Origin: Myxococcales bacterium
GTDB taxonomy: Bacteria > Myxococcota_A > UBA9042 > JABWCM01 > BTVJ01
Assembly: GCA_045863395.1 (NCBI GenBank)
Contig: BTVJ01000007.1
Location: 1 to 64,000 of the forward strand
DNA length: 64,000 nucleotides
Direction of reading: 5' to 3'
The notes beneath the pieces were generated by a model. That model was not told where the DNA came from. It ran no database searches and saw only the letters and a program-made list of their open reading frames with translations. Of this stretch, positions 93 through 17,309 are shown one piece after another (within the stretch, counting starts at the first letter, position 1; the number at the start of each line of letters is the position of its first letter). The position numbers and the translations under genes were made by a program.

Positions 93-2294
<2,202 letters not shown>

Positions 2295-2389
2295 CGCTGC
2301 CTGGCCCTGGGCGCGGCCTGGGGCGCGCGGAAGGGGGCGCGTCGTCCCGGGGCGTCGAGTCCCTCGGTGGGAGGGTCGTCGGGGGCCGA

Positions 2390-3058
2390 TCAGGCCGGCC
2401 GGTTCCTCACGTAATAGACTACCGCGGCCGGCCAGAAGACGACGGCGAGGACCATGAACACCACGGGGTTGAAGGTGCGGCCGCCGGCGGGCGCTGGGGC
2501 GCCAGGCCCTGGAGGCGGGTTGCGGAGCTCGGCCAGCGCCTTCAGCCGCAGCTCGTTGAGCGTCGCAGAGCTGAACGCCGCGCCGCAGTGGCTGCACACG
2601 GGGCTCTGGGAGGCGCCGAGGGGGACGCGCTGTGACACGCGCGCCCCGCAGCTCGGGCAGCTCTCGACGAGCACCATCTCCGACCGCAGCCGCCCATCGA
2701 CGATCATGTCGGTGTCCGTATCCCACACGAACCAGGCGAGCCCCCGCCCGTTGACCGCCCGCAGCGTCTCGGCGACGTCCTCGCGGCTGAAGCCGGTGCT
2801 CTGCAGCAGGTCGCGGACCCGCACCTCCTTGGCCCGGTCCAGGATGCGCCAGATGGCGACGCAGCGCTTCTCCCGGGCCCGCACCCGGTAGCCCAGCGTC
2901 AGGAGCCCGACGGGAGCCAGCGCAAACAGGACCGCGAAGGGCGCAGCGGCCGGCTTCTCCATGGACCCCAGGACCCAGAACACGCTGAGGACGCAGGTAG
3001 CCCACCCCACCCGGATGAGGATGTCGTCCTGCCTGAAGAGGTTCTCGCGCACGCCCAT
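2390..3058 (-). CDS. Hypothetical membrane protein with Zn-ribbon (CPSCG...CSHCG)
   Basis: Two N-terminal TM segments, central HTH-like stretch, CxxC pairs, C-terminal TM. Start set at ATG 3058 (MGVRENLF); the ORF track extends to 3379. Confidence 0.65.
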   Translation of the reverse strand: MGVRENLFRQDDILIRVGWATCVLSVFWVLGSMEKPAAAPFAVLFALAPVGLLTLGYRVRAREKRCVAIWRILDRAKEVRVRDLLQSTGFSREDVAETLRAVNGRGLAWFVWDTDTDMIVDGRLRSEMVLVESCPSCGARVSQRVPLGASQSPVCSHCGAAFSSATLNELRLKALAELRNPPPGPGAPAPAGGRTFNPVVFMVLAVVFWPAAVVYYVRNRPA

Positions 3059-3218
3059 GGTTGGGGAGGATACCTGCGCGGTGGGGGGACGCAAGCTCGC
3101 CGGCAGGTTCTCCGTGGGCGCATCGGCACCAGCTACGACGTTCCCGCGCTTCTGGCGGCGATCAGCGCTGCGAGCCATGGGCTTTGTCGTGCGTTTGGCG
3201 TTGGGGAACCTCGATAGC

Positions 3219-3248
3219 ATGACACTGGCCTGACCAGTGTTGTATCCT
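3219..3248 (+). promoter_or_regulatory. Putative sigma70-type promoter of the kinase gene, overlapped by a 7-5-7 inverted repeat
   Basis: ATGACA(3219-3224)-18 nt-TATCCT(3243-3248); ACACTGG-cctga-CCAGTGT at 3222-3240. Confidence 0.4.
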
Positions 3249-3299
3249 GATCCGGCAGCAGCCGTGTCTCGGCAAGGTGAGCAACCAACCGGAGGCGCC

Positions 3300-6200
3300 G
3301 TGACCAAGCACGAATCCGTCGGGCAAACGGGTCTCGAGGACCTGCTCCGCAGTCTGGAGAGATCGGCACCCCCGTTCATCGCGTGGATCGCTCACGACAT
3401 TCTCCGGCGCGGTGGACGATCCCATTGGGAGCGCGACTTTGGGCGCGAGAGCACCCTGGTTCACGTAATTACCCGCTACCTCATCTGGGTGCTCTCGCGA
3501 TCCTCTGGGAAGCCGCTTGTCGCGCAGACCACGGTGGCGGAGGATCTCAAAGACCTGAGTTCCCTGCCTTACGGTCTCGGCCGCGCAGCTCGGCTTCTGG
3601 CCGTCGGGGACGAGGCACTCGCAGAGACGAGCCGACGACTGGGCCTGCCACTCGACGCGGAGCACCTGGCTGCGTTTCAGGAATCGCTACAGTGTTGGTG
3701 GGAGAGGGTGCGTCACTCGCGGACGCACGCCCGCCCGCCGGGAGAGTGTTGCGAGGAGGACCACCTGCTGTTGATGCTCCGAGCGGCACACGGAGCCCTC
3801 ACCGCGATGCGTCTCTTGGTAGTCGTTGGTAACGATGCGGGGCTGCGTCCAGGGTCCCCTCGAACTCTTCTCGTCGATGTCTATCGCGGCGCTCGGGTAT
3901 CTCGACGTGAGACCTGGGCTGTCAAGGACACGTCCGAGCTGGCACATCTCCAGCGCGGGGTTCCCTACCTCTGGTGGAGCAGAGCGGAGGCCAGGACCGG
4001 GTGCCTCCTGCTGCTGTACCCTGCTGCTCTCATGGCTCGCAGAGCGGACCGGGTGGATGTCTACGACGGTGCCTACCTCGAGCCCTGCCTTCTCGCCGCC
4101 CCAGAGGGCGCTGACCTGGCGTCTCGTCTGAGCGCACACGGGAGCGCGGTGATTGCGACCGGATCACTGATCGAGCCTGGGGTCGGCCTCGACTGTGCGG
4201 TTCGCTTGCGCCTGCCCTCGACGTGGGGAGACCTGGCGCCGGCGCTGCACGAAGTCGCCGGCAGTGGCTTGGTGAACGTGGAGCTCACCGAGAGTCCGAA
4301 CTTCCTGCAGTTGGAGTTGCTCGGGCCGGACTGGCGTGACGCGACCGATGAGAACCTCAGACCCGTCGCGGGAGCCTTTGGAACCGTGTATCCCTGCACT
4401 CACGTGAAGTACCCCGACCGGTTGTTCGCGGTGAAGGTGTTTCACGACCATGTCGATCTTCACCCGAGCTGGCGCGACGGCCTCGACCGCGTGGAGCGAG
4501 CCTCCAGCGGTAGTCCGGGCGACAGCGTGGTCCACTACTACCCTGACCTCTCGCGGATGGAGTTCGGCAAGCGCCCCGCCTACGTCGTCATGGACTGGAG
4601 GCGATCCAGGGGCAACCTGGATGACGTGGACGCTCGGGGCCTCATCGGGCGCACACCCACGGAGCGCCTCGGCTTCAGCACGAAGCTGGTGGAGGCGGTG
4701 GCCTGGTTGCACCGTCTGAACGCTCCGCATCGTGATCTGCACCCGTCCAATGTACTGGTCTGCGAGGCGAAGGACGGGATGGCCGCTCCGGTCCTCGTCG
4801 ACCTGGGTCTGGCGCTCATTCAGCAGGGGGGCTCCAGCACTTCGGCCGTGACCGGGACGCTTCTCGGTGCCGGGCGCCGCCCATTCGTGGCGCCCGAGAG
4901 CGCTTTGGTTGAGCATGACCCGTTTCGCGCGGACGTCCACGGCGTGGGTTGGTTATGCGTCATGGTGCTGGCCGGGAGGGCCCCCATGGAGTTGGAGCTC
5001 GCCCCCGACCGAGCGCTCAAGCCAGTCCAGCGGATGTGCAAGCACGGAGCGTTGCCCGCCGCGCTTTCGGATCTGCTCGATCAGTGGGTAGCCAGCGATC
5101 CAATGGAGCGCCCCGAGAGCGCCGTGGAGGCCTTGGACCAGTGGATGCGGATCGCGCGGGGCCAAGCGAGGGCTGGTGCTCGCCTTCCAGGCGGGTTTGA
5201 GCTCATGCAGTCAGCGGGAGGCGACGCGCGACCCTACGCTGTCTGCGTTCACGCCAGAGACCGGGAGGCTGCACTGGTTGTGCCTGTGCCCTCGGACCAC
5301 ATGGGAGCCCGCACCTTGCTGGACCGGTGGCGGGAAGGTCGGCTCGGCGTGCCGCACCTGGCACCCCTTGTGGCCGTCGCCTCAGACCGTTCCCAGGCGC
5401 TCGTCCGGGCGCCTGCGGTCCGAGCCATGGTCCTCGACGCCAGCACTCTGCCGTCCAGCGCCCGGGCTCGTGCCGCGTTGCTCGCGTCATTGCTGGAAGT
5501 GTGCGTCGGATTGGCCCGCTGCGAGGTGCGCGCTTGGGTTCACCGCGACGGTCTGCTCGTGGATACGAGCGGCGCGCTTCACGTGGTGGCGCTTCGGCCG
5601 GGGACGTGCCCGTCAGAGGAGCGCGAGATTTCATGGGTTGAGCGCCTGTGCGATGCGCTGCTGAAGGAGGCTCGGGACGATCATGTGGACGTGGGCTGGC
5701 CAGACGCCGTGGGCGTGAGGATCTTCGGCGACCAGGGCGATGCCATCGAGTCCACGGCCAGCCCTGTCGTCAGGGCGCTGGGCCTGCTGGGCCGCCGCGA
5801 GGACCGCGACATCGGAGACGTGATGGCGCTCGGCGTTGAGTGCTTCCACGCGCTCGCTCCAGCTCTTCACGGCAAGAGGCCGATCATCGAGCTCGCGGAC
5901 GACCTGGTGATTCGGCTCCTTCGCTCGGCGTCGTCTGCGCTGCCCACTCCAGAGGTCATCTCAAGCGACGATGTTCGCACCGAGTCGGACATCATCAGGG
6001 AGCGTTTGCCCACCCTGCGAGAGGAGCACTGGCGAGAGCACCAGCACGAGGTCGATCACAAGCGACGGGAGCACGAGGAGGAGCGGGAGCTACGGAGGGT
6101 GGAGCACGAGGAGGAACAGGAGCGTCGGAGGGTGGAGTACGAGGAGGAGCAGGAGCGACGGAGGGGGGAGCAGCAGTTGGAGCGGGAGAGGAGCAGAGTC

Positions 6201-7130
6201 GAGCGATTCGAGGGCGATCCGGCGCAGCTAGAATTGGAGCCATGCGAACCCCCGCCCTTCGAAGTGCGACCGTTCGAGAACGTGCCATTCCAGGAGCCCG
6301 TCCGAGAAGCATTTGCCTCTTGGGCCTTCCGGCGCATGGACCCGACCTCTCCAGAGACGTGTGCCCGATGGGAGTTGAATCATCGGGGAGACTGCTTGGA
6401 ACTTATGGCTCGCCCCACCAAGGTGCGAATCTACTCCGGGCCCAGAGCGCTGGTTGAGATCGACCCGGGCGGTACTGCCCTCCGCTCCATGGCGCCGGCG
6501 AGCCCGCTCTCGGAGGTGTTGCAGCGCCTGCCGCGGTGGATCGACGAGTCCTTCGTGCCCGTCGTTCCGGGGATTGACGCGGAGTCTCTGCGCCTGCGAG
6601 TCGAGGTCTTGCAGGTCCTGCGCGCGCTGACCTGGCTCTGTGTGACCCTGGATCTGGCGGACGATCAGGTAGGCGCCATGGGTGCCGTCAGGATCTGGCA
6701 GGACAGAGGGGTGGGCCAGTGGCAAGTGTGGTCCCAAGCGATGCCGGAGTGGTTCGAGAAGCGCCCGGCTGGGCCGAGCGCGGATTGGAACATCAAACTC
6801 CACGAGGCACTGGTCTGCGTGTGGGCGTCTTGCCGCTTGACCGGTGCCACCGATGATCCTGGAGCGGCCCGAGCGCATCTCTCGTGCTGGCTGGAGTTGA
6901 TCTTGGAGCGGCTCTCTGGCATCGCACCTCCGAGCCCCGTCGCGCGGCGGGGCATCGGCGCACACGAAGAGCGCGCTGACCTCAAGTCGCGGCTCATAGC
7001 GCTCGGCTTGGCGATCCACTTGGCCGAAGGGGGGTTCGCGTGGTTCCACGGCGCCGCGTCCATCGACCGGCCGGAGGTCCTCTACGCGGTTCCTCCGACG
7101 TGCATCGTGGAGGCGCGGTCGGTGCGGTAG
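3300..7130 (+). CDS. Large soluble Hanks-type Ser/Thr protein kinase with a second degenerate kinase-like domain and an E/R-rich helical repeat
   Basis: GAFGTVY (Gly loop), FAVKVF (catalytic Lys), HRDLHPSNVL, LVDLGLA, PFVAPE, RADVHGVG. GTG start at 3300 preceded by GGAGG. No obvious TM segment or signal peptide. Confidence 0.85.
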   Translation: MTKHESVGQTGLEDLLRSLERSAPPFIAWIAHDILRRGGRSHWERDFGRESTLVHVITRYLIWVLSRSSGKPLVAQTTVAEDLKDLSSLPYGLGRAARLLAVGDEALAETSRRLGLPLDAEHLAAFQESLQCWWERVRHSRTHARPPGECCEEDHLLLMLRAAHGALTAMRLLVVVGNDAGLRPGSPRTLLVDVYRGARVSRRETWAVKDTSELAHLQRGVPYLWWSRAEARTGCLLLLYPAALMARRADRVDVYDGAYLEPCLLAAPEGADLASRLSAHGSAVIATGSLIEPGVGLDCAVRLRLPSTWGDLAPALHEVAGSGLVNVELTESPNFLQLELLGPDWRDATDENLRPVAGAFGTVYPCTHVKYPDRLFAVKVFHDHVDLHPSWRDGLDRVERASSGSPGDSVVHYYPDLSRMEFGKRPAYVVMDWRRSRGNLDDVDARGLIGRTPTERLGFSTKLVEAVAWLHRLNAPHRDLHPSNVLVCEAKDGMAAPVLVDLGLALIQQGGSSTSAVTGTLLGAGRRPFVAPESALVEHDPFRADVHGVGWLCVMVLAGRAPMELELAPDRALKPVQRMCKHGALPAALSDLLDQWVASDPMERPESAVEALDQWMRIARGQARAGARLPGGFELMQSAGGDARPYAVCVHARDREAALVVPVPSDHMGARTLLDRWREGRLGVPHLAPLVAVASDRSQALVRAPAVRAMVLDASTLPSSARARAALLASLLEVCVGLARCEVRAWVHRDGLLVDTSGALHVVALRPGTCPSEEREISWVERLCDALLKEARDDHVDVGWPDAVGVRIFGDQGDAIESTASPVVRALGLLGRREDRDIGDVMALGVECFHALAPALHGKRPIIELADDLVIRLLRSASSALPTPEVISSDDVRTESDIIRERLPTLREEHWREHQHEVDHKRREHEEERELRRVEHEEEQERRRVEYEEEQERRRGEQQLERERSRVERFEGDPAQLELEPCEPPPFEVRPFENVPFQEPVREAFASWAFRRMDPTSPETCARWELNHRGDCLELMARPTKVRIYSGPRALVEIDPGGTALRSMAPASPLSEVLQRLPRWIDESFVPVVPGIDAESLRLRVEVLQVLRALTWLCVTLDLADDQVGAMGAVRIWQDRGVGQWQVWSQAMPEWFEKRPAGPSADWNIKLHEALVCVWASCRLTGATDDPGAARAHLSCWLELILERLSGIAPPSPVARRGIGAHEERADLKSRLIALGLAIHLAEGGFAWFHGAASIDRPEVLYAVPPTCIVEARSVR
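6060..6191 (+). repeat. Four imperfect 33-bp in-frame tandem repeats (11-aa units such as RRVEHEEEQER) in the kinase
   Basis: Units start at 6060, 6093, 6126 and 6159 (e.g. cggagggtggagcacgaggaggaacaggagcgt). Confidence 0.85.
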
Positions 7131-8752
7131 ACCTCGGCGTAGCTGGCCGGAGCGAAGGTCGGGGATGTCCACCACGTGGCGACAAGGTCCCCAAACCCCA
7201 TCCTGGTGGAGACGGCGCCGATCAGGCTTCGTGCTGCGCCCCGGAGGGCCTCCACGTCGGTGCTCTCGACCGCGTCCGTGCGGTGGGCGCAGTCGTTGCG
7301 CAGGCGGCTCCAGCGCATGGAGAGCCACCACGCGGCCGTCCCAAGCGGCTCGAAGTCGATGATCGAGGCGCCGGTTGCGCCGGGGATCTCCAGCCTCAAG
7401 GTCGATGAATCTCCTTGGTCGGACTGGGGCTCACGGTGCTCCTCCGGGAGGAACGGGTTGGCGACGGCGTCCGGCGTGAAAATATCACCCTCCTTGGCCT
7501 GCCCGCGAAGGAGGAGCCAGGACGCCGTCTTGGCGCTCCCAAGAATGTCTTTGGCTCGCTTGAGGACCCTCCGGCTCGGGTTCGGGCAGCCGTCCAGCGT
7601 CAATGTCCTGTTCGAGAGCATCCACTCCACGAGCGCCGAGAGAGCCAGCTCGCCGAGTCCATAGAGGCGCAAGGTGGCGGACCGCGGCTCGAGGTTGCCA
7701 CGCCCGACCCAGCGCCAGCCGTCGACCAGGAAGCAGAGCAGCGCCTCGGGCTTTGACGCGAGGCGCCGGACCGCGCGCGATCTGCCCCTTCCGAAGTCCG
7801 CAGCAAGGACCTTCACAGGCTCCGGGAGGTCACTGCCGCTGGCTGCGATAAGCGACTCCGCCTCGCCATACCTTGCGGCCTCCCATGCGACACACCCGCG
7901 CGCGTAGGCCAGGGTCCCGCGGAGGGCGTCGTCCTCTGGGTCCCGCTCTGGGGAGCCCTCCGCGCCGCTCCCAGGACCTGCGTTGCTCGCGCCTCCCACG
8001 CCTCTCTCTGCCAGCACTCGTTCCAGCACAGTTACGGCCTCCCCAAACCTCGACTCACCGAAGAAGCGGCCCACGGCTCGGAGGTCGCGCAGATGGAGCG
8101 CGGTGGCGGGGTTGGCGAGGGACAGAAGCCGAAGTGTGAAGGGGCGGGGCTGGTGGACGGCCGCCACGTAGGTGCCGTCCAGGTAGACCGCCTGGATGTC
8201 CAGCTCAGAGGCCAGCAGAAAGGCCGCCGACACCATGGTCTTCTTGCCACCAGTTACATCGAGCAGGGTTGATCTCCGCGGTCGCGCGGAGCCGGGCGGG
8301 CCCTCCGCGACGACGTCCGCCTGGACGAGGGCCCCCCGCAGCCTTCGGTAGATCTCGGTCGGATCCGTCTCATCGATGAGCACCAGGTCCGTCGCGGGTG
8401 CGGCGTCGAGCGCGAGCGCCACCGGCACCGCCGCGATGCGCGCGATGCGCTGGGCAACCTCTCGTGTCACGTCCGTGTGGGCGAGGATGAGCATCGCCGG
8501 CCGGACCAGTGCGATCAGCGCGAGGATCGGCTGCGGTGTCGTCCCCACGACGCTGACGAGGGTCTCGCACTCTGGTGGCGGAGTCGCTGCTGCGCGAAGG
8601 CGCCTCACCTCGTGGGGTACGAGGTCCTGGACGTAGGATCCCAACGCAACTTCGCTGTCACCGACCCACGGGGGTCCGTCGTCCCGGGAGTCGCCAAGCT
8701 CGTCGACCCACCGGTCGAACTCGTCGCAAATGTCCACCTGGCTTCGGGGCAT
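7082..8752 (-). CDS. CRISPR-associated CARF-domain effector with C-terminal HEPN motif (Csm6-like / TIGR02710-like)
   Basis: CARF motifs VSVVGTTPQP and LLDVTGGKKTMVSAA, helical middle region, RNDCAH (R-X4-H) near the C terminus; last gene of the cas operon. Confidence 0.85.
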   Translation of the reverse strand: MPRSQVDICDEFDRWVDELGDSRDDGPPWVGDSEVALGSYVQDLVPHEVRRLRAAATPPPECETLVSVVGTTPQPILALIALVRPAMLILAHTDVTREVAQRIARIAAVPVALALDAAPATDLVLIDETDPTEIYRRLRGALVQADVVAEGPPGSARPRRSTLLDVTGGKKTMVSAAFLLASELDIQAVYLDGTYVAAVHQPRPFTLRLLSLANPATALHLRDLRAVGRFFGESRFGEAVTVLERVLAERGVGGASNAGPGSGAEGSPERDPEDDALRGTLAYARGCVAWEAARYGEAESLIAASGSDLPEPVKVLAADFGRGRSRAVRRLASKPEALLCFLVDGWRWVGRGNLEPRSATLRLYGLGELALSALVEWMLSNRTLTLDGCPNPSRRVLKRAKDILGSAKTASWLLLRGQAKEGDIFTPDAVANPFLPEEHREPQSDQGDSSTLRLEIPGATGASIIDFEPLGTAAWWLSMRWSRLRNDCAHRTDAVESTDVEALRGAARSLIGAVSTRMGFGDLVATWWTSPTFAPASYAEVYRTDRASTMHVGGTA

Positions 8753-8753
8753 C

Positions 8754-9161
8754 TCAGCCTCCCCGAGCCCGCTCGGCGGCCCCCATCAGGCGACGGCACC
8801 AGGCGAGGACGTAGGCTAGCGCCTCCGGTGTCGAGTCTTTGCCGCAGGCCTCTCTCACCGACGGAAGGCGTCGCAGCACCTCGGTGCAGACCCTCTCATA
8901 CTGCGGGCCCGCTGAGCGGGTGTAGGCCGCGAGGTGGGACTTGGGTAGCAGCTTCAGGTACGTCTCGATGTCCTCGATGGCCGGACGGGTCGAGAGGAAG
9001 CGGATGATCGGGCTCAGCACCGCCGGGTCCACCGAGGCGCCGCTCCCGCCAGTGCGAAAGGCGCCGAGGGCTTGGGCCATCTTCTGTCCGGTGTCCAGCA
9101 ACTTGCGCTTCCGCTCCTGGTCCTGTTCGGCTGCTTGCCTCCGATTCAGCTCCTCGCTCAT
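8754..9161 (-). CDS. Small alpha-helical protein, candidate Cas11-type small subunit (second)
   Basis: 135 aa, helical, ends YVLAWCRRLM (W-x-x-R like Cmr5/Csm2 C termini); overlaps the upstream RAMP stop (ATGA). Confidence 0.55.
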   Translation of the reverse strand: MSEELNRRQAAEQDQERKRKLLDTGQKMAQALGAFRTGGSGASVDPAVLSPIIRFLSTRPAIEDIETYLKLLPKSHLAAYTRSAGPQYERVCTEVLRRLPSVREACGKDSTPEALAYVLAWCRRLMGAAERARGG

Positions 9162-10039
9162 CGCGTCCCTCCGGTCCCCTGCGCCGCGCGCAGTGCCGCG
9201 AGCGCCTTCTCTCCGCCCGGTGGCAGCCGTACCGCCTCGATGGCCCCCCGCACCCAGGCGCCGATGGCGTCAACGTCCAGTCGCTTTGGCACCGGGTCGT
9301 CGTACCCGGCGCGGAGCACTGCCCGCTCGGGGCGCACTGCGATGCGCCCGAGGCCGCCGAACTTGCCGCCCCCGGCGCGCGGGTGGAAGGTGCCGTCACA
9401 CCCGGAGGCGAGCAGCACCAGGCCCAGCTCCGACTCTGTGACGTTGCTCAGGGCCAGCGGCACCTCGAAGGTCACGCCGGCCGGGACGACGACCATGGGC
9501 ACCTCGCGGGGCAGCTCGACGCGGGGCGTGGGGTACAGGCGGCGGCCGGCGGCGCGGCGCGGCGCGAACGCACGTGGCAGGAACCGCAGCTCGATGCGGT
9601 CTGCGTCCGCCGAGTCTCGCAGGACGCCGTCGCCCGCGCCCACACGGCCCATGTGCTCCCCGCTCCGGCGCGTGACGAAGCCGAACAGCACGCACGCCGG
9701 GCACTCGCCGCAGCACTCTGGCTCCATGTTGCATCCGCCCCCCAGGGCCTCGACGAGAGACCGGAGCACGCCCTTGAGCGAGGCGCCGGGCAGCAGGGGA
9801 GCGCCCTTGCGAAGCAGGATGTCCCGCGCGAGGACGGGCCCCCGGTTCGTCTCGAAGGGATACTCGACTCCCGAGCCCACGTGGAGCGGGTCGACGGTGG
9901 TGACGGCGAGCGTGAGCGTGCCGGTGACGCGGTCGCGCTTGGTCAGGTGGTGCCAGTGCTCCTTGGTCAGGTGTGTCTGCACGCGCGGCGCCGCGGGGAG
10001 CTCGGCATAGACGGTGAGCGGCGGCTGGTCCTGCCTCAT
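9158..10039 (-). CDS. Type III RAMP, Cas7-group (Csm5/Csm3-like)
   Basis: PLHVGSG, LPGASLKGVLRSLVEAL, CPACVLFG, G-rich loop GGGKFGGLGRI; start ATG 10039. Confidence 0.85.
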   Translation of the reverse strand: MRQDQPPLTVYAELPAAPRVQTHLTKEHWHHLTKRDRVTGTLTLAVTTVDPLHVGSGVEYPFETNRGPVLARDILLRKGAPLLPGASLKGVLRSLVEALGGGCNMEPECCGECPACVLFGFVTRRSGEHMGRVGAGDGVLRDSADADRIELRFLPRAFAPRRAAGRRLYPTPRVELPREVPMVVVPAGVTFEVPLALSNVTESELGLVLLASGCDGTFHPRAGGGKFGGLGRIAVRPERAVLRAGYDDPVPKRLDVDAIGAWVRGAIEAVRLPPGGEKALAALRAAQGTGGTR

Positions 10040-11007
10040 CGCCCGCTCCCCGCGGCGACCAGTGCCTGCCAGGGCCCCTGGGTCTGGCAGCGCCGGAAGA
10101 AGTCCCAGACGTCGGTTCCCGTGGCCTCCCACACGCGGAACACGGGGTCGTCGGCGGCCCAAGCGGCCGGAACCTCCCGCAACGTGTCTCCATCGATGAG
10201 GCCGTAGGGCTGCGCCAGCGCTGGGGCGAGCGCCCCTACCCCCGCGGGCACCCCCGGTGCGCCGAGCTGGCGGTAGCGCAAGGCGCGCGGGGTCACGTCC
10301 ATCATCCCGAGGCCGCGCGTCTTGCCGGAGCCCACACGCACGATGCCCTCCCGCAGGTCCTCCAACACCACTCCGATGAGCGCCACCTGCCAGAGCTGGA
10401 CGTTCTCCATGTGGATCCGCACAGCGAAGCTCCCCGCGACCACCACCTCGGACTCGTAGAGTTTCCCGCGGGCCGGTCCTCCGCTTCTGCGGTCGATGCT
10501 GACGCCCGCGCGGGTCTCCGTCTTGTTGGCCGTGCGAAGCGCCTTCTCGTCGGCCGGGTAGGCGTCGGCGAAGCGGATTCGGCCGGCGAGTGCCTGGCTC
10601 CCGAAGCAGCGGCAGGCGCCGCAGAGCATTCGATAGACCGGCGCCATGGGGTACTGCTCTCGCTTGACCTTGCCCCGGGCGATGTCGTCACCCAGGCGCG
10701 AGGCCTTCGCGTGACAGTCACTCTTGTGGTCCATGGGGTCGCAGGCCATGGAGGCTGCGTCCCCCGGGTTGAGTGATCGCAGTACGCGCTCCGCTGCGGA
10801 CCGGACCACGCCCTTCAGCGAGCTCCCCGGGATGAACACGGATTCCTGCCCGCCCAAGTGATCGGGCGCTCGTCCCCGCAAGGCCATGAGGTCCGGGCGC
10901 TCCGGGTGAAGCAGGTTCCCCCCCTTCGTATCTGCCTTGATAAGGAAGCCCGTCCGCGGGGACAGCTCCAGCTCCAGCGTTACAGTGTTCAGCGTCGCGT
11001 TGAACAT
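10036..11007 (-). CDS. Type III RAMP, Cas7-group (Csm3/Csx7-like)
   Basis: FIPGSSLKGVVRSAAE, CGACRCFGS, GRIRFADA, GVSIDRRSG, VGSGKTRGLG. Confidence 0.9.
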   Translation of the reverse strand: MFNATLNTVTLELELSPRTGFLIKADTKGGNLLHPERPDLMALRGRAPDHLGGQESVFIPGSSLKGVVRSAAERVLRSLNPGDAASMACDPMDHKSDCHAKASRLGDDIARGKVKREQYPMAPVYRMLCGACRCFGSQALAGRIRFADAYPADEKALRTANKTETRAGVSIDRRSGGPARGKLYESEVVVAGSFAVRIHMENVQLWQVALIGVVLEDLREGIVRVGSGKTRGLGMMDVTPRALRYRQLGAPGVPAGVGALAPALAQPYGLIDGDTLREVPAAWAADDPVFRVWEATGTDVWDFFRRCQTQGPWQALVAAGSGR

Positions 11008-11008
11008 C

Positions 11009-11836
11009 TCAGCCCACCTCCGTCCGGGCCCGCTCTGCCACGGCTTCGCGTAGCGCCTTCATCCAACGCCCCTGCGTCGCTTCGTCCTGCATCTCCCCCG
11101 GCCGTGCCTCCAGGATGTCATCCAGGGTGCGTACGGTGACGGTCAGCTCCTCCACCCGGCAAACGCCCAATCCCCGGCTTCCGAAGCCCCCGATGCGGAC
11201 GCCGCCGCCCTCCACCATCCGCAGGCTTGCCCGCAAGAGTCCGCGCTGCCAGTCCACCAAGTTCTCTCCCTCGATGAGCAGGGGGAAACGGGCGCCGGCG
11301 TTCACCACCTCGAAGTCGAACTTGCGCCCGCCGGAGACCCGCCCCAAGTCCCGGTCGATGGAGACCCCGTCCCGCACCTGGGCTGAACCCGCGGCGCAGG
11401 CGTCGTGAAAGCGAACATGGGCGGCGAGACCCGCGAGGCCAAAGGTGGCGCAGGCAAGGCAGGCCCTGTCGCTGACCTGCTTCCGGTGCTCCACTACGCG
11501 GCCTCGCGTCTCCTTGGTGTCGTCACCGTCTCCCATGGCGTCCGAGCCCCCCCTGAAGCACGGGGCCAGCAGCGGGTCGCAGGCGACGCGCGCAGCGTCT
11601 CCGCCTGCGTTCATCGCCAGACCGCGCAGCAGCCGCTCGGCGGCGCTCCGCAGGACTCCCTTGAGCGAGGCGCCCGGGAGCAGTGGCTTGCCATCGTGGC
11701 TCCGCAGCAGCGGCAAGTCGGTCATCGTGGACTCCATGGAGCGTCCCTGGCCGACCCGCAGCCCTGTCTCGGCGACGAGGGTCGCCTCCAGGCGGGTGAG
11801 GTCCACGAAGGCGTCGAACCACTTGAACGGCTCCAT
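11009..11836 (-). CDS. csx7: Type III RAMP Csx7/Csm3-like Cas7 backbone subunit
   Basis: TGLRVGQG..TDLPLLR (Asp at the Csm3 catalytic position), LPGASLKGVLRS, CLACATFG, RDGVSIDR, IGGFGSRGLG; start ATG 11836. Confidence 0.85.
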   Translation of the reverse strand: MEPFKWFDAFVDLTRLEATLVAETGLRVGQGRSMESTMTDLPLLRSHDGKPLLPGASLKGVLRSAAERLLRGLAMNAGGDAARVACDPLLAPCFRGGSDAMGDGDDTKETRGRVVEHRKQVSDRACLACATFGLAGLAAHVRFHDACAAGSAQVRDGVSIDRDLGRVSGGRKFDFEVVNAGARFPLLIEGENLVDWQRGLLRASLRMVEGGGVRIGGFGSRGLGVCRVEELTVTVRTLDDILEARPGEMQDEATQGRWMKALREAVAERARTEVG

Positions 11837-11837
11837 T

Positions 11838-12176
11838 TCACGCCCCCCTGCCGCGCTCGGCGGCGACCTGGAGTCGGGCGATATGGCCGAGGAGCATCGC
11901 CGCGATGTCAAGGTCGTCCTCGCCCTGGCCCTTCTCGCCGATGGCTCGCTTCAGCTCCGCCACCAGTACGTCCTTCAGGCTGGCAACTGCCTGCACTCGA
12001 CTCGCTTGATACTCCAGCGTGATCCAGAGCTCTTCGATGACCGTGGCCTCCTGGGCCGCCTTCTGCAGGTTCTTCAAGGCGGTACGGCTGTCCGCGCTCG
12101 CCAGTGCCTGCCGCCGCTTCTCGTCCGCGTAGAGCTCCCACGCCTGGACCGCCGTCCTCGCGCTCACCGTTGCCAC
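11838..12176 (-). CDS. Small subunit Cas11 (Csm2-like)
   Basis: 112 aa, helical, LEYQASR motif resembling III-D small subunits; GTG start with GGGAGG RBS; lies between csx10 and csx7. Confidence 0.65.
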   Translation of the reverse strand: MATVSARTAVQAWELYADEKRRQALASADSRTALKNLQKAAQEATVIEELWITLEYQASRVQAVASLKDVLVAELKRAIGEKGQGEDDLDIAAMLLGHIARLQVAAERGRGA

Positions 12177-12192
12177 GTCACACCTCCCGTGA

Positions 12193-13977
12193 TCATCCCA
12201 GCGCACAACTCCAGGCGCAGAGCCGCCCGAGCCCGAGCTTCGTCCCTTCGCCGACCCCTGCCGTCTCTGCCCGTACGAGCGCCGCCGTGTTCAAGGGCGC
12301 CTCGCCGTCGATGAGGAGCAGCCAGACCGCCCCCGCGCGCAGCACTGGCGTGAAGGGGCGCGGCCCGGCCGTCGTCCCCGCTCCGTCCCAACCCGACCGA
12401 ACCCCCGCCCGCGCGAAGGACCAGGCACGCACCTGGCGCCCAGGGAACAGCGTCTCCCCGAGCCAGCGACCGCTGCTTGCGGGGGTAACTTCACCCGGGA
12501 GCTGCATAGGGGTCCTGGCGACCAGCTCCAGCCAGCGCCCTTCGGGCAGGCCCAGGAGTTCGCGCACAGGCGTCGTGACCGCGGAGATCCGCTCCCCCTG
12601 GTCGGAGACCCTCTGGTCGACGTTCCTTGAGTCGAAGGTCGTCCAGTTCAGACGCACGCGCCCCAGGCCACGTCCCCGCATGCCGCCGAGGCGTATGGGG
12701 TGGCGAAGTTGAGCGAGCAGCCCACGGACCGTCGCATCGAGACCGCTGACGGTCGCCGAGAAGCGTGAGTGTGCCTCTATCTGCTCGCGGCTGAAGAGCA
12801 TCCCCTCGGCGGCGCTCCGTGTCGTCGGGTCCAGCGCCAGGCGAGTCACGATTCGCGTGTCGACGATCAACGGCGACGTCGGCCTCGATGGGTGCCGCAC
12901 GCCGCTTGCTCGCCGCAGGGTCTCCGTACACCCCTTCCGCGTGCAGCGCGCGGGCTCCGCTGGACGACCCCCGTGCGCCAGCAGCGACGGCGCGAGCGCA
13001 AGGCCCGCCGTGCGGTCCACCACGATCCGGTCGTGTACGGGGCACGCGAACAGCGTGCGTGGTGCGGGGCACCAGAGGTCGCCGTCCGACGTCGGCCACG
13101 CGTCCGAGACGGAGAGCGTCGCGAGGAGGTGCTTGAAGTCCACAGACTGCGGGTTCACGCCGCCCCGGACGAGGGCTGCCGCCAGCGCGCCCTGGATGGC
13201 CGACCCGGGGATGAAGCGGGTGGTCCCCTTGAAGTTGCCTCCGTCCGGCACGTCGCCGAAGTGCAGATCGGACTCTGCCGTGATCACGAGCACGGCTTCG
13301 CCCTCCGGGAGCGTCACCCCGTCCGGTGACACCGCCTCGGCGTCACCCAGGGTGATGGAGATTGCTCCGAGCCCACGGCTGCGACTGTTCCCGATGGCCC
13401 CGAGCAGGAGGCATGCCTGGCGGAGGAGCGTGACCTCGTCGTCCGTCAGCCAGCCGCACACGGCGCCGAGGTAGGGGCTGTCGCTCCCCGCGACCTCCCG
13501 GACGAAGAGCAGACCGTCGCTGGCGTGTCCCGTCTTTCGGTCGACGCCCACCCCATGCCGGATGCGGGACGACTCGAACCATGAGTCGGCAATCAAGTCC
13601 TCGAACCAGAGGGATCCGGGCATCTCCGCAGACGGTGTGCCCGATTCGGTTCCGGTTGCGCTCCCCTCGGAGTTCGGCTCGCCCGGACGGTCCGGCCCCG
13701 GACGACCGAAGAGCCGACACACCAGGCAGGGATTAGGGCCGCACGGCTCGTCGAACGGGAGGCACGCCTGCTTGCCCCGGCCGCGGACCAGGCGCACGGT
13801 GGCTTCTCGAAGCGCGCCCTTGAGTGCTGAGGCCGGAATGATCGGCTTGCCCCGACCACTGCGGCTCACCTCCCTCGCGGTGGAGGAGTCGAGGAAGGGG
13901 GCGGTCTCCGAGTGTCCACCAATCAGGAGGTCCCCTGTGACGTGTGCCGTCACCGGGAGTCGTCTGAAGCTTCTCAT
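12193..13977 (-). CDS. csx10: Csx10-like Cas7-Cas5 RAMP fusion
   Basis: N-terminal RAMP (IIPASALKGALRE, CLVCRLFG, RHGVGVDRKTG, IGNSRSRGLG), second RAMP region (FIPGSAIQGALA, RLGGMRGRGLG) and terminal GVGEGTKLGLG; ATG 13977 overlaps the cas10 stop. Confidence 0.8.
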   Translation of the reverse strand: MRSFRRLPVTAHVTGDLLIGGHSETAPFLDSSTAREVSRSGRGKPIIPASALKGALREATVRLVRGRGKQACLPFDEPCGPNPCLVCRLFGRPGPDRPGEPNSEGSATGTESGTPSAEMPGSLWFEDLIADSWFESSRIRHGVGVDRKTGHASDGLLFVREVAGSDSPYLGAVCGWLTDDEVTLLRQACLLLGAIGNSRSRGLGAISITLGDAEAVSPDGVTLPEGEAVLVITAESDLHFGDVPDGGNFKGTTRFIPGSAIQGALAAALVRGGVNPQSVDFKHLLATLSVSDAWPTSDGDLWCPAPRTLFACPVHDRIVVDRTAGLALAPSLLAHGGRPAEPARCTRKGCTETLRRASGVRHPSRPTSPLIVDTRIVTRLALDPTTRSAAEGMLFSREQIEAHSRFSATVSGLDATVRGLLAQLRHPIRLGGMRGRGLGRVRLNWTTFDSRNVDQRVSDQGERISAVTTPVRELLGLPEGRWLELVARTPMQLPGEVTPASSGRWLGETLFPGRQVRAWSFARAGVRSGWDGAGTTAGPRPFTPVLRAGAVWLLLIDGEAPLNTAALVRAETAGVGEGTKLGLGRLCAWSCALG

Positions 13978-15638
13978 GTCCGGCCCCCTTCGATGCGCCG
14001 GGTCGCCAACAAGTCTACCAGGTCGGGCAGGGCCGACGACCACTCCGCCTGCTCCGCCAGCCCCAGGGCCCGTTCGTCGCGGACGAGCAGAGTGTCCAAT
14101 CCAGCCCACGGTGCGCCGGGGGATGGGTAGATACCGGCGGCATCGACCCCGGCGCGCGCCAGCGTATACGCCACCGTCACAACGCCCGCGACGGGGTCCT
14201 CGTCCAGGGCCTGGCGCGCGTGGTACAGGGCGGATCGGCCCAGCTTCTCACCCTCCAGGCGGCTCCCGAGCGCACGCAGGTCGCCCAGCTCAGCCAGCGT
14301 GTAAGGCTTGCGGTACAGGCGGAAGCTCCCCTCCCGCTGCGACCCGGGAGCATTGAAGCGGCGGCTCTTGCGTCTCCTGAGACCCGTGATGGAGCCAGAC
14401 ACCAGGGAGCTGCCCGGGAAGTACTCGAAGTCGATGGCCGCGAGGGCGTCGTCGCCCACCCGCCGCTTGGCGCTCGCGACCATCTCCTTGGCCAGGTTGA
14501 ATCCTAGGCGAGCGGGTAGGTTTCGCGCGACGGCCACGCCGACCCCGAGGCCGGGCACGGGGACCTGAGCGCCGCCGATGGTCCGCCGAAGCGCGTCGCG
14601 TGTCTCTTGCCCCTGCTTCACGGCCCGGTGTGCCAGCTTCTCCGCGAGCTCCACAGGCCCGCTCCAGTCTGGCCCTCTGGCGCCAGCCCCCACCACGAGC
14701 AGCACGTCGTCGCCGCCGCTGATCACGCGCCAGACCGAGTCCGGCTCGACACCGATGGCGCGTAGCGCCTCCTCCACTCCCACGGCACCGAACATGCGGT
14801 GCAGAGTGGTGGAGAGCACGGCATAGTCCCCCAGGGTTCTGAGGCTCTGGAGGGTCTTGCCCACGCCCTTTCCGTCGATGGCGATGTAGGCGGGCCCACC
14901 GGGGAGCTCGTCGAAGGTGCGCGGGTCCTTGCCTCGGTCTCGGCGCCCGCCCTGCCGGAAGGAATCGCAGCGGTCGCAGCGCAGTACACTCTGCTCTCGG
15001 GGGATCCCGCCGCGCTCTCCGCACTCCTCGCACCGCTGGGGGGCGGGCCGCGCCTTCGCCGGTCGCGGCTGGTCCTTGCGCAGCGCCAGGGCGGCGGCAC
15101 ATTCACCGAGGAGGGCGCCGAAGCCGCCACCTCCGCCGCTGTCCACGCCGAGTTTCTCCAGGGCTGCCACCTCCGTGGCTGACCGCCCCGTCATCGGGGC
15201 TGGGCCGTGGATCAGCGCTCTCGGAGAGACGACCCGTGCCACCGCGCGTGCCTCGCCCTGCGTCTCTCGTGCGAAGAGGCGCTCCAGCTCGGCTGTCCGC
15301 TCCTCATGCCCAGCCGCGGGCCCAAGCAGCACGGACAGGCCACCACCCGAAAACAGCAGGACGTGGTCGTTGCTTGACGCCCACGTCTCGGCTCGTTGGT
15401 CCCAGCCGGCGAGCACCCGGCTCGCGCCCCGCGTAGTCGTCGGGCTCCGTGAGGCGAGCACCAGCTCCTGAATCTCAACGGCGTCGCAGAGCAACAGAGC
15501 CAGAGATTGCTCGGACGGTATAGATACCTCGTCTGTCCCCCGAAGCACTGCCGTGGCAAGCCTCTCAGCCCCCTCCACGCCGAGTCGCCCAAGGAGTGTG
15601 CCGATGTCCCGCTCGAGCTCTTCGATTCTCTTTGCCAC
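13974..15638 (-). CDS. cas10: Cas10 (type III large subunit), HD-less, Palm domains with intact GGDD
   Basis: D..IQELVLAS....RGAS (Palm1), FSGGG, Zn finger CEEC..CDRC, YIAIDGKGVG, ISGGDDVLLV; GTG start 15638 with GGGGAG RBS. Confidence 0.9.
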   Translation of the reverse strand: MAKRIEELERDIGTLLGRLGVEGAERLATAVLRGTDEVSIPSEQSLALLLCDAVEIQELVLASRSPTTTRGASRVLAGWDQRAETWASSNDHVLLFSGGGLSVLLGPAAGHEERTAELERLFARETQGEARAVARVVSPRALIHGPAPMTGRSATEVAALEKLGVDSGGGGGFGALLGECAAALALRKDQPRPAKARPAPQRCEECGERGGIPREQSVLRCDRCDSFRQGGRRDRGKDPRTFDELPGGPAYIAIDGKGVGKTLQSLRTLGDYAVLSTTLHRMFGAVGVEEALRAIGVEPDSVWRVISGGDDVLLVVGAGARGPDWSGPVELAEKLAHRAVKQGQETRDALRRTIGGAQVPVPGLGVGVAVARNLPARLGFNLAKEMVASAKRRVGDDALAAIDFEYFPGSSLVSGSITGLRRRKSRRFNAPGSQREGSFRLYRKPYTLAELGDLRALGSRLEGEKLGRSALYHARQALDEDPVAGVVTVAYTLARAGVDAAGIYPSPGAPWAGLDTLLVRDERALGLAEQAEWSSALPDLVDLLATRRIEGGRT

Positions 15639-15909
15639 GTGAGACTCCCCATCCTTTGGGTGGCGAGCGTTCGATGAAGCCACACAAGGGCCGTGCGCGT
15701 CAAGCGACTTTCGCTCATCTCGCGCTCATTCTGATCGCAGCGATGTCTTTCTGCCCCCCGCTGAGTCGGGCTGTGTGTCGCTCCGCCGGACCCGTTGACG
15801 GCCACGGGCACCGCATCGACAGCGTCGCGGTATCGAGCCAGTTTGGCGCCGGCTCTGATGGAGATTCTCCGCGTCGGAACCGGTTCAGCCGTGGCGCCCC
15901 GCGCGGCCC

Positions 15910-16524
15910 TCACGACCCCCGCGCCGCCTCCACGAACGCCCGCATCCGCGCGGCGTCCTTGACCCCCGGCGCCGACTCCACCCCGCTCGCGACGTCCACC
16001 CCGGCTGGGCGCACCGTGCGAACCGCCTCCGCGACCGTCTCCGGCGTGAGGCCGCCCGCCAGCAGCATCGTCCCCAGCCTTGCCGCCTGGCGCGCCAGGT
16101 CCTGGTCCGCCGTCCGCCCGGTCCCGCCCGCCTGTGTCGGGTGCCACGCGTCCGCCAGGAACAGGTCGCTCCCCCACTCCCGAATCCTGTCCACGTCCTC
16201 CGCGGTCCTCAGCCGGTGGGCCTTGAACCAGGGCCACGGCAGCGCCCGACACCACTCCGGCGGCTCCGAGCCGTGGAGCTGCACCAGGTCGAGATCCGCC
16301 CCCGCCATGGCGGCGCCGATGGTTTCGCGGTCCGCGTCGACGAAGACGCCCACGACTCGCACGGGGCCCGCACCCCTGGCGGCCCTGCTGATCATCCCTG
16401 CCACGGCGACGCTGACGCAGCGCGGCGACCGCGCATGGAAGTTGAGCCCGATGAGGTCTGCGCCGGCCTCCACCGCTCCCACCGCGTCCTCGGGGCGCGT
16501 GATCCCGCAGATCTTGACGAGCAT
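15910..16524 (-). CDS. trpF: Phosphoribosylanthranilate isomerase
   Basis: VKICGIT, VQLHGSE, LAGGLTPE, GVDVASGVE; start coupled to the trpC stop. Confidence 0.95.
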   Translation of the reverse strand: MLVKICGITRPEDAVGAVEAGADLIGLNFHARSPRCVSVAVAGMISRAARGAGPVRVVGVFVDADRETIGAAMAGADLDLVQLHGSEPPEWCRALPWPWFKAHRLRTAEDVDRIREWGSDLFLADAWHPTQAGGTGRTADQDLARQAARLGTMLLAGGLTPETVAEAVRTVRPAGVDVASGVESAPGVKDAARMRAFVEAARGS

Positions 16525-17309
16525 CACGCCCCGCTGAGGCTGCGCAGGAGGGCCCCGGGCGAGGGGGCTCGGACCAGGGCCTCCCCCACGAGAAACGCTC
16601 CATACCCGCACCCATGGAGGCGCTCCACGTCGGCGCGGCAGGAGATCCCGCTCTCGGTGACGCGGACGACCCCCGGCGGAAACAGGGGCGCCAGGCGCTC
16701 GCTGGTCGCGAGGGACACCTCGAAGGTCTGGAGGCTCCGGTTGTTGACGCCGACGATGCGCGCGCCTGCCGCCAGCGCCACCGCCAGCTCCTCCTCGTCG
16801 TGCACCTCGACCAGCGCCTCCATTCCCAGGGATCGCGTCGTCCCGAGCAGGTCGCCCAGCGCCGCCGGCTCCAGCGCCGCCACGATGAGCAGCACCAGGT
16901 CGGCCCCCACGGCCCGGGCCCGTTTGATCTGCCAGCTCGTGACGATGAAGTCCTTGCACAGGACGGGGACCTGGACGCACTGCCTGACCAAGGCCAGGCG
17001 GTCGAAGCTCCCGTGGAAGTAACGCTCGTCCGTCAGCACGGAGATCACCGCCGCCCCGGCCGCCTCCACCTCCCGGGCGTAGGCCACCGGGTCCAGATGG
17101 GGGGCCAGCACCCCCTTGGACGGCGAGGCCGTCTTCACCTCGGCAATGACGCGGACCCCGTCGCGCAGGAGCGCACCCAGGGCGTCACGGGGCTTGGGGG
17201 CCGCCTGGGCCAGCCGCGCGATCTCTCCCTCCGGGAGGATCGCCATCTCTCGCGCCACCTCCGCGCGCTTGTGCGCCAGGATGGCGTCGAGCCAGGCCTC
17301 GGTGCTCAT
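16524..17309 (-). CDS. trpC: Indole-3-glycerol phosphate synthase
   Basis: IAEVKTASPSKG, ISVLTDERYF, LCKDFI, VGVNNR, TESGI. Confidence 0.95.
   Translation of the reverse strand: MSTEAWLDAILAHKRAEVAREMAILPEGEIARLAQAAPKPRDALGALLRDGVRVIAEVKTASPSKGVLAPHLDPVAYAREVEAAGAAVISVLTDERYFHGSFDRLALVRQCVQVPVLCKDFIVTSWQIKRARAVGADLVLLIVAALEPAALGDLLGTTRSLGMEALVEVHDEEELAVALAAGARIVGVNNRSLQTFEVSLATSERLAPLFPPGVVRVTESGISCRADVERLHGCGYGAFLVGEALVRAPSPGALLRSLSGA

What the first reader, a model, noticed from the sequence alone, without database searches (positions are those of the whole stretch)
3300..15638. Candidate new system: array-less type III-D-like CRISPR effector operon physically joined to a large Ser/Thr kinase-pseudokinase
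Seen: eight tightly coupled minus-strand genes (cas10, csx10, cas11, three cas7-type RAMPs, a second small subunit, CARF-HEPN) run head-on into a ~1276-aa soluble kinase, and the two 3' ends overlap by 49 bp. By eye the block uses more A/T-ending codons than the flanking trp genes, suggesting one acquired island. Established: Cas10 with GGDD makes cyclic oligoadenylate that activates CARF effectors, and soluble Hanks kinases act in phage defence (staphylococcal Stk2, BREX/Pgl PglW). Inference: the kinase may be a dedicated partner, either a second abortive-infection effector or a phospho-switch on the complex. I do not know of a characterised type III module with this kinase architecture.
Basis: partly seen in the sequence, partly recalled or inferred. 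Interest (0 to 1): 0.9.

Follow-up and report, generated by a model that had tools for sequence, protein, structure and literature searches.

The report
Rare kinase travelling with CRISPR module
An RNA-sensing CRISPR immune module of a known kind sits next to a very rare, large protein kinase, and the same pairing recurs in a distantly related bacterium, which suggests the kinase is an extra, so far undescribed arm of this defence.

Summary
The anatomy is confirmed: eight coupled minus-strand genes (HD-less Cas10 with intact GGDD, Cas7-Cas5/Csx10 fusion, two Cas11-like subunits, three Cas7, CARF-HEPN) meet a 1,276-aa kinase with a 49-bp overlap. 'Array-less' holds only locally: the assembly has four arrays and a Cas6 elsewhere. 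The module is a Csx7-type III-D system, a widespread layout. The kinase is very rare, with two full-length homologues found. One was found by following the operon: in genome G511 it lies about 120 bp from the orthologous cas10, divergent upstream rather than convergent downstream (a circular permutation). Kinase and Cas proteins have diverged to similar degrees (28% against 30-46%). The link is optional: 2 of 4 clade loci with readable flanks, 2 of 6 clade genomes, and 0 of 17 outside-clade loci carry it. Likely architecture: HEPN-like N-domain (Rx4H in 3 of 3; fold unproven), active Hanks kinase, probable pseudokinase, coiled coil, unknown C-domain. Best reading: an ancestral accessory abortive-infection effector, inherited with the module but not shown to be wired to Cas10. 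Kinases beside type III loci are already reported (PCk, C3a189); this family was not found in my searches. New variant; the evidence rests on two loci.

The parts
3219..3248 (+). sigma-70-like promoter match (9 of 12) about 50 bp upstream of the kinase start
   Evidence: the only match in 2200-16600; 0.4 expected by chance; consensus match only
3300..7130 (+). 1,276-aa kinase. aa 1-~340: N-terminal helical plus beta domain, possibly HEPN-like (R138-x4-H143). aa ~355-620: Hanks kinase with K379, HRD477-479, DLG501-503, APE531-533, D545. aa ~620-900: degenerate kinase-like region. aa ~890-970: coiled coil with a 33-nt tandem repeat. aa ~985-1276: unknown C-domain
   Evidence: Pfam Pkinase E 1.5e-13; motifs; repeat at 6035-6199; homology to the G511 kinase in the N, post-kinase and C regions, z 6.0, 7.0 and 5.7 against 300 shuffles
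7082..8752 (-). CARF-HEPN (Csx1/Csm6-like) effector, 556 aa
   Evidence: PADLOC CARF1--CARF_HEPN E 9e-23; DxTGGxK and RNxCAH conserved in 4 of 4 clade members aligned
8754..9161 (-). second small subunit, Cas11-like, 135 aa
   Evidence: no significant library hit; orthologues in G346, G476, G436 and G511; hhalign to the first small subunit E 9.7e-5
9158..10039 (-). Cas7-group RAMP, no large insertion; no Asp visible at the usual catalytic place (by eye)
   Evidence: PF03787 E 1e-8; TIGR03986 below cut-off
10036..11007 (-). Cas7, Csx7 family
   Evidence: TIGR02581 117 bits, above cut-off 108
11009..11836 (-). Cas7, Csx7 family; invariant D40 in the TDLP motif
   Evidence: TIGR02581 155 bits; D40 invariant in 19 of 19
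11838..12206 (-). Cas11-like small subunit, 122 aa
   Evidence: weak PADLOC Csm2/III-D SS hit, E 0.025; conserved position in related loci
12193..13977 (-). Cas7-Cas5 (Csx10) fusion, 594 aa
   Evidence: PF03787 E 4e-27; PADLOC Cas5_IIId E 3e-23; TIGR02674 E 2.5e-17, below cut-off
13974..15638 (-). Cas10, 554 aa, no HD domain, zinc finger, Palm2 with DG..G and GGDD
   Evidence: PF22335 27.1 bits, at cut-off; GGDD and CxxC..CxxC in 6 of 6 clade members

Best explanation
SHOWN: a Csx7-type III-D effector operon with an intact Cas10 cyclase motif and a CARF-HEPN gene, and an adjacent rare kinase whose orthologue is also adjacent to the orthologous operon in G511. FROM ESTABLISHED KNOWLEDGE: the complex loads crRNA cut in trans, binds phage RNA, Cas10 makes cyclic oligoadenylate, and the CARF-HEPN RNase induces dormancy. 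The likely crRNA source is the three arrays whose 37-nt repeats end in ATTGAGAC, with the Cas6 on contig C78. INFERRED: the kinase is an optional accessory defence protein, present early in this operon clade, moved with it as one unit (the two layouts are circular permutations with the kinase always antisense) and lost in some lineages. It most likely works as a second abortive-infection arm built like PglW/DndF (effector domain, active kinase, dead kinase, scaffold, variable sensor). The C-terminal part or the dead kinase holds it off until infection, and it then arrests the cell by phosphorylation and possibly by RNA cleavage. It acts alongside Cas10 signalling rather than through it.
For: The G511 kinase was found operon-first. 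It is the only match at E<=1e-8 among 74 candidates in that genome and spans aa 403-1158. It starts about 120 bp from cas10. The three kinase domains form one group among 92 kinases (SH-aLRT 95, quick tree). The two kinase-bearing operons fall in different halves of one 7-member Cas7 clade (100; halves 95 and 82). Identities window vs G511: kinase 28%, CARF 30%, Cas10 33%, Cas7 41-46%. A specific gene landing in one of two neighbour slots by chance is about 3e-4, assuming about 6,700 genes. The clade swaps accessory genes: Cas6 in G476 and G511, a different CARF upstream in G436. PglW/DndF grammar: PMC12839542 passages. Cas6 in trans is usual for type III: PMC12669027 passage.
Against: Only two linked loci. 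The context of the third homologue, P0002, could not be read. The kinase is absent from 2 of 4 readable clade loci and was not found in 4 of 6 clade genomes (78-90% complete). The tree tool flagged the window-G511 join as long branches meeting. P0002 shows no significant pairwise similarity to the window protein in the N and C regions (z -0.3 and 0.4), and leave-one-out profiles of the post-kinase regions scored nothing useful. The pseudokinase call is weak (hhalign E 0.14). Nothing here shows defence activity, and this genome has 85 Ser/Thr kinase ORFs, most of them presumably regulatory.
Confidence: 0.5

Rival explanations
1. The kinase is wired into type III signalling. Either cyclic oligoadenylate binds the dead kinase or another domain and switches on the kinase or a HEPN-like RNase (RNase L/Ire1-like logic), or the kinase phosphorylates Cas or CARF subunits to tune the response.
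For: Immediate adjacency in both genomes, with a 120-bp divergent intergenic region in G511 that could hold a shared promoter. Rx4H at an equivalent place in 3 of 3 N-domains. The best wide fold match of the N-domain model is the Roquin N-terminus, which holds a HEPN domain (Z 6.0, rmsd 3.7, 130 aligned). PCk is a precedent for a kinase proposed downstream of cA3.
Against: No CARF or SAVED domain in the kinase. The module already has a CARF-HEPN effector. The kinase is dispensable. The fold model is poor (pLDDT 37) and the Roquin hit is tied with unrelated GPCRs (Z 5.9). Rx4H occurs 6, 5 and 3 times in these proteins and was picked out after the fact. In the window the kinase has its own promoter-like site.
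Confidence: 0.2
2. Passive hitch-hiker: the kinase was a neighbour on an old mobile or defence island and has been carried along, with no role in the same response.
For: Circular permutation needs only one rearrangement, so the two loci may count as one ancestral event. The kinase has the lowest GC3 of the block (0.785). It is lost in half of the readable loci. IS-like remnants lie near the G511 locus (by eye).
Against: Adjacency has survived divergence to 28% identity while all other neighbours changed. The ORF is intact in both genomes and in a second strain. No unlinked full-length copy turned up in 703 genomes searched, though only 2-6 candidates per genome were scored.
Confidence: 0.22
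3. Coincidence: two generic myxobacterial kinases happen to flank the operon, and the apparent orthology is an artefact of composition and long branches.
For: 85 kinase ORFs in 8.77 Mb give about a 2% chance that some kinase is an immediate neighbour. Unrelated kinases do lie near L012, L082 and L101.
Against: Collinear similarity in three non-kinase regions (1, 0 and 0 of 300 shuffles reached the score). Same length and domain order. In leave-one-out tests each member outscored all the genome's other kinases in the comparison set, the window protein only narrowly (72 vs 69 bits).
Confidence: 0.06

Closest known systems
Type III-D CRISPR-Cas (Csx10 marker; Csx7-type Cas7), e.g. III-D1 and III-Dv
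   Same: HD-less Cas10 with GGDD, Csx10-type Cas5 fused to Cas7, Cas11, several Cas7, CARF-HEPN. The same gene order recurs in dozens of metagenome loci.
   Different: No Csx19 and no Cas7 with a large insertion detected; a second Cas11-like gene; a strongly diverged Cas10 (one 97%-identical database hit); no local array, cas6 or cas1; adjacent kinase.
PCk kinase of the Haliangium ochraceum III-B SAVED-CHAT/PCaspase cluster (bioRxiv 10.1101/2023.06.23.546230, passages)
   Same: Ser/Thr kinase beside a type III operon in Myxococcota, proposed as a toxic abortive-infection arm, untested.
   Different: PCk lies inside a protease cascade cluster; this locus has no SAVED-CHAT, caspase or sigma factor, and the kinase is antisense. 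I did not compare the PCk sequence.
C3a189 type III accessory kinase (Hoch_5581; PMC6546367, table row)
   Same: Kinase family listed next to III-B and III-D cassettes (3 members).
   Different: The PADLOC C3a189 model matches only over the kinase domain (profile 8-255 of 840).
PglW (type 2 BREX) and DndF subset (PMC12839542, passages)
   Same: Large soluble defence protein with a nuclease domain, tandem dead and live kinase, and a variable C-terminal part.
   Different: Here the live kinase comes first, there is no NERD, wHTH or iSTAND hit, the score is far below cut-off (40 vs 990 bits), and there are no BREX genes.
RNase L / Ire1 (kinase-KEN HEPN; PMC3710099, passages)
   Same: Possible kinase or pseudokinase plus HEPN pairing next to an oligoadenylate-making RNA sensor. 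Activation of RNase L by 2'-5' oligoadenylate is recalled, not from a call.
   Different: Eukaryotic; KEN is C-terminal; ankyrin or luminal sensors are absent here; HEPN identity here is unproven.

Membership tests
Type III-D | csx10 (III-D Cas5 variant) | tested here: met
   best Cas5 hits are Cas5_IIId E 3e-23 and TIGR02674 E 2.5e-17 (63 bits, below the 177 cut-off, so divergent); marker per PMC11026444
Type III-D | Cas10 without HD domain, with active Palm2 GGDD | tested here: met
   554 aa, no HD hit, GGDD in 6 of 6; HD is in 3% of III-D per PMC11229360
Type III-D | several Cas7 with catalytic Asp, and Cas11 | tested here: met
   the Asp was checked by alignment for one Cas7 and by eye for the others
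Type III-D1 / III-Dv | Csx19 and Cas7 with large insertion | tested here: not met
   no Csx19 hit for either small ORF; the last Cas7 is 293 aa and scores 56 of 161 bits on TIGR03986. csx19 is described as 'often' present
Type III-D | placement in the reference Cas10 tree | not tested
   no reference set at hand; only a Cas7 tree of fetched loci was built
HRAMP/ARAMP array-less derivatives | no CRISPR arrays; HNH or PD-(D/E)xK nucleases associated | tested here: not met
   four arrays, three cas1 and a cas6 in the assembly; CARF-HEPN instead of those nucleases; definition from PMC12669027
Hanks-type Ser/Thr kinase | VAIK Lys, HRD, DFG-like Asp, subdomain IX Asp | tested here: met
   K379, HRD477, DLG501, D545 present in 3 of 3; APE is missing in G511; the first Gly of the Gly-loop is missing in the window protein
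Pseudokinase (aa ~620-900) | kinase fold without catalytic motifs | tested here: inconclusive
   hhalign E 0.14 lines up with the catalytic-loop region; G511 region hits APH(3'') at E 0.03; fold prediction failed
HEPN | Rx4-6H motif at the end of a helix | tested here: met
   RHSRTH, RSAWQH, RNERAH at aa 138, 123, 136; MAFFT puts the G511 motif a few columns off; the motif is common by chance
HEPN | helical-bundle fold or profile match | tested here: inconclusive
   no Pfam, PADLOC, NCBIfam, PHROGs or PDB profile hit; model pLDDT 37; best VIA match is Roquin, Z 6.0, rmsd 3.7, 130 aligned, tied with unrelated chains
PglW | NERD, pseudokinase then kinase, wHTH, iSTAND, BREX neighbours | tested here: not met
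   NF033442 40.5 of 990 bits, kinase domain only
C3a189 | match along the 840-position profile | tested here: not met
   profile positions 8-255 only
PCk module | SAVED-CHAT, PCaspase and sigma factor in the cluster | tested here: not met
   the nine ORFs fill 3300-15638 and none hits such families

The most novel reading that the evidence does not exclude
A bacterial RNase L-like effector: a HEPN RNase-kinase-pseudokinase protein switched on by the cyclic oligoadenylate of the neighbouring Cas10 through a sensor that is neither CARF nor SAVED, linking CRISPR RNA sensing directly to protein phosphorylation.
Probability: 0.08. Interest if true: 0.92.

Novelty: new variant of a known kind. Interest (0 to 1): 0.63.

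Why it matters
Type III CRISPR effectors are mostly nucleases, proteases and membrane proteins. The one type III kinase I found studied, PCk, could not be cloned or tested. A rare kinase family that has stayed beside one III-D clade down to 28% identity is a concrete candidate for testing whether CRISPR signalling uses phosphorylation. If it proves independent of Cas10, it is still an undescribed multi-domain defence kinase with unclassified N- and C-domains.

Tried and rejected
Kinase N-domain against 1.84 billion representatives: self only. Against 401 phylum genomes: self plus 8 hits at E about 1e-3 to 1e-2, treated as chance and mostly not examined. Cas10 in genome contigs: one weak hit (L008) with no cas operon in its ORF list, rejected. 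Cas10 in 40 relatives and in plasmids: none. Kinase in viral contigs: none. The idea that P0002 lies in G346 was rejected. G346:C739, G346:C566 and G440:C715 kinases showed no match to the non-kinase regions. A three-member profile on 182, 107, 113 and 301 genomes gave full-length matches only to its own seeds; sensitivity is low. Alignment A5 was misaligned and discarded. AlphaFold2 of aa 1-1200 failed (pLDDT 31). Foldseek on the N-domain model gave nothing at E<=0.001. N- and C-domains are not detectably duplicates (E 0.76). A homodimer prediction for the N-domain returned no answer. ESM Atlas: the N-domains of the window kinase (0.77) and P0002 (0.93) hit the same three unnamed clusters, plus an EAD11-bearing cluster at 0.80; a lead only. 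RNA-run contigs cover parts of both the kinase and the operon but cannot show transcription; no well-supported joint skipping the block was seen. No repeat copies with up to 8 mismatches in the window or six clade loci plus flanks. Earlier scan findings: none returned.
Full report
SETTING. The window is G000:C7:1-64000 of an 8.77-Mb, 71% GC assembly (97% complete). The phylum is inferred to be Myxococcota from names on the nearest Cas7 homologues. Near-identical DNA occurs in bioreactor, wastewater, sludge and aquatic metagenomes.

OBSERVATION. The nine ORFs, their coupling and the 49-bp overlap are as described. A contig from another study bridges the kinase-CARF junction. GC3 is lower than in the trp genes, but equal to that of the genome's other cas10 genes, so it says little about a single island.

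THE CAS MODULE. Profiles give Cas10, a Cas7-Csx10 fusion, two Csx7 above cut-off, a further Cas7 and CARF-HEPN. Cas10 starts at Palm1, has no HD domain and keeps GGDD in 6 of 6 clade members. The CARF protein keeps RNxCAH in 4 of 4. The two small ORFs resemble each other, so both are Cas11-like. The layout is common: most of the 47 loci of 5 kb or more mapped (two of them other loci of G000), drawn chiefly from the best 80 of 237 metagenome matches, show cas10, cas7, cas5, cas11, cas7, cas7, cas7, often with CARF. The module is therefore a Csx7-type III-D system without Csx19.

ARRAYS. None lie in the window. The assembly has arrays of about 26, 99, 18 and 72-74 repeats, three of them with 37-nt repeats ending ATTGAGAC. 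It also has three cas1 genes and a cas6 on C78 in the same PADLOC family as the cas6 genes that sit in the G476 and G511 loci. Supply in trans is the ordinary explanation (PMC12669027, passages). Which array serves this complex is not shown.

THE KINASE. A search of 5.8 billion proteins (8,000 candidates scored) gave 6 hits: a 99% variant, one protein of like architecture (P0002, 28% over 46%) and four kinase-domain hits. The N-terminal 350 aa found only itself among 1.84 billion representatives. The catalytic residues are intact. The region after the kinase is plausibly a dead kinase, but the evidence is weak. The N-domain carries Rx4H at an equivalent place in all three proteins, followed by H, S or N; PMC3710099 (passages) gives this as the HEPN motif. 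A poor model's best match was Roquin's HEPN-containing N-terminus, tied with noise. I put HEPN identity at about 45%.

LINKAGE. I searched from the operon side. Cas7 searches of 401 phylum genomes and of 107, 154, 31 and 113 genomes by class or order (overlapping sets) gave ten other loci. A Cas7 tree of 61 loci puts the window in a 7-member clade (support 100) with G346, G476, G436, G440, G511 and one short contig. In G511 a 1,221-aa kinase begins about 120 bp upstream of cas10 on the opposite strand. It is the only hit of the window kinase in that genome at E<=1e-8 among 74 candidates. It shares the N, post-kinase and C regions (z 6.0, 7.0, 5.7) and groups with the window kinase and P0002 among 92 kinase domains, with a long-branch warning. 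The two layouts are circular permutations of one unit. Against a dedicated partner: G476 and G436 have readable flanks and lack it; G346, G440 and L015 are cut short; no full-length copy was found in G346, G440, G476 or G436 (396 of 440 candidates scored). None of 17 outside-clade loci with both flanks carries it, while 2 of them carry unrelated kinases; 17 further loci had one long flank only and shorter loci were left out of the count. A three-member profile found no new member in 703 genomes, scoring only 2-6 candidates each. So both members with known context are beside this clade, but the count is two.

MECHANISM. See Best explanation. The cOA-to-CARF-HEPN path follows from established type III biology. 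The kinase's role is inference: a parallel abortive-infection arm (0.5), passive passenger (0.22), direct coupling (0.2), or coincidence (0.06).

LITERATURE. I read passages only (term look-ups), no whole papers and no supplements: PMC11090510, bioRxiv 2023.06.23.546230 (73), PMC11237760, PMC12669027 ('kinase' has 0 occurrences in the main text), PMC3710099, PMC11229360 (both 'kinase' mentions concern histidine kinases), PMC6546367, PMC4346627, PMC12839542, PMC11026444. Searches listed no paper on a III-D module with this kinase; some served classification and Roquin. The library lacks most subscription papers, and supplementary tables of PMC6546367, PMC11229360 and PMC12669027 could list the family. 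Stk2 is known to me by recall and from a reference title.

VERDICT. Known CRISPR subtype, real but optional and thinly sampled link to an undescribed kinase family: new variant of a known kind, interest 0.63.

Noticed in passing
G000:C136:10145-11274: Two spacers, one from the C78 array (40 of 40) and one from the C126 array (36 of 38), match this contig of the same assembly; probably a resident phage or mobile element.
   Followed up: no
G000 contigs C2, C42, C78, C64, C126, C99 (L001-L007): The genome holds three more type III modules, a I-G-like locus (by eye), and an 18-repeat array at the end of C99 with no cas genes recognised nearby.
   Followed up: partly
L102:1291-2580: In G436 the slot upstream of cas10 holds a 429-aa CARF protein with an unassigned C-terminal half, instead of CARF-HEPN or the kinase.
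   Followed up: partly
L107:17776-18070 and 19200-19764: A short Schlafen/AlbA-like fragment between CARF and cas6, and IS66-like remnants after cas6 in G511; both judged by eye.
   Followed up: no
window 14260-14390 (Cas10 aa 418-459) and 7331-7388: Strain differences are clustered: 13 of 14 Cas10 substitutions in P0007 fall in aa 418-459, and run X6 shows nine changes within 58 bp of the CARF gene; suggests recombination.
   Followed up: no
window 6035-6199: Four copies of a 33-nt unit encode the E/R-rich coiled coil of the kinase.
   Followed up: no
L082:190-2352: An unrelated Ser/Thr kinase lies about 1.6 kb upstream of cas10, on the same strand, in a distant Csx7-type locus; its relative L088 shows none in 3.9 kb upstream.
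   Followed up: partly
L101:8080-8160: A perfect tandem duplication of about 36 bp between cas6 and a generic kinase in G476; not recognised as a CRISPR repeat.
   Followed up: no
window 2390-3100: Membrane protein with a zinc ribbon, divergent from the kinase; GC3 0.92 suggests a native gene.
   Followed up: no
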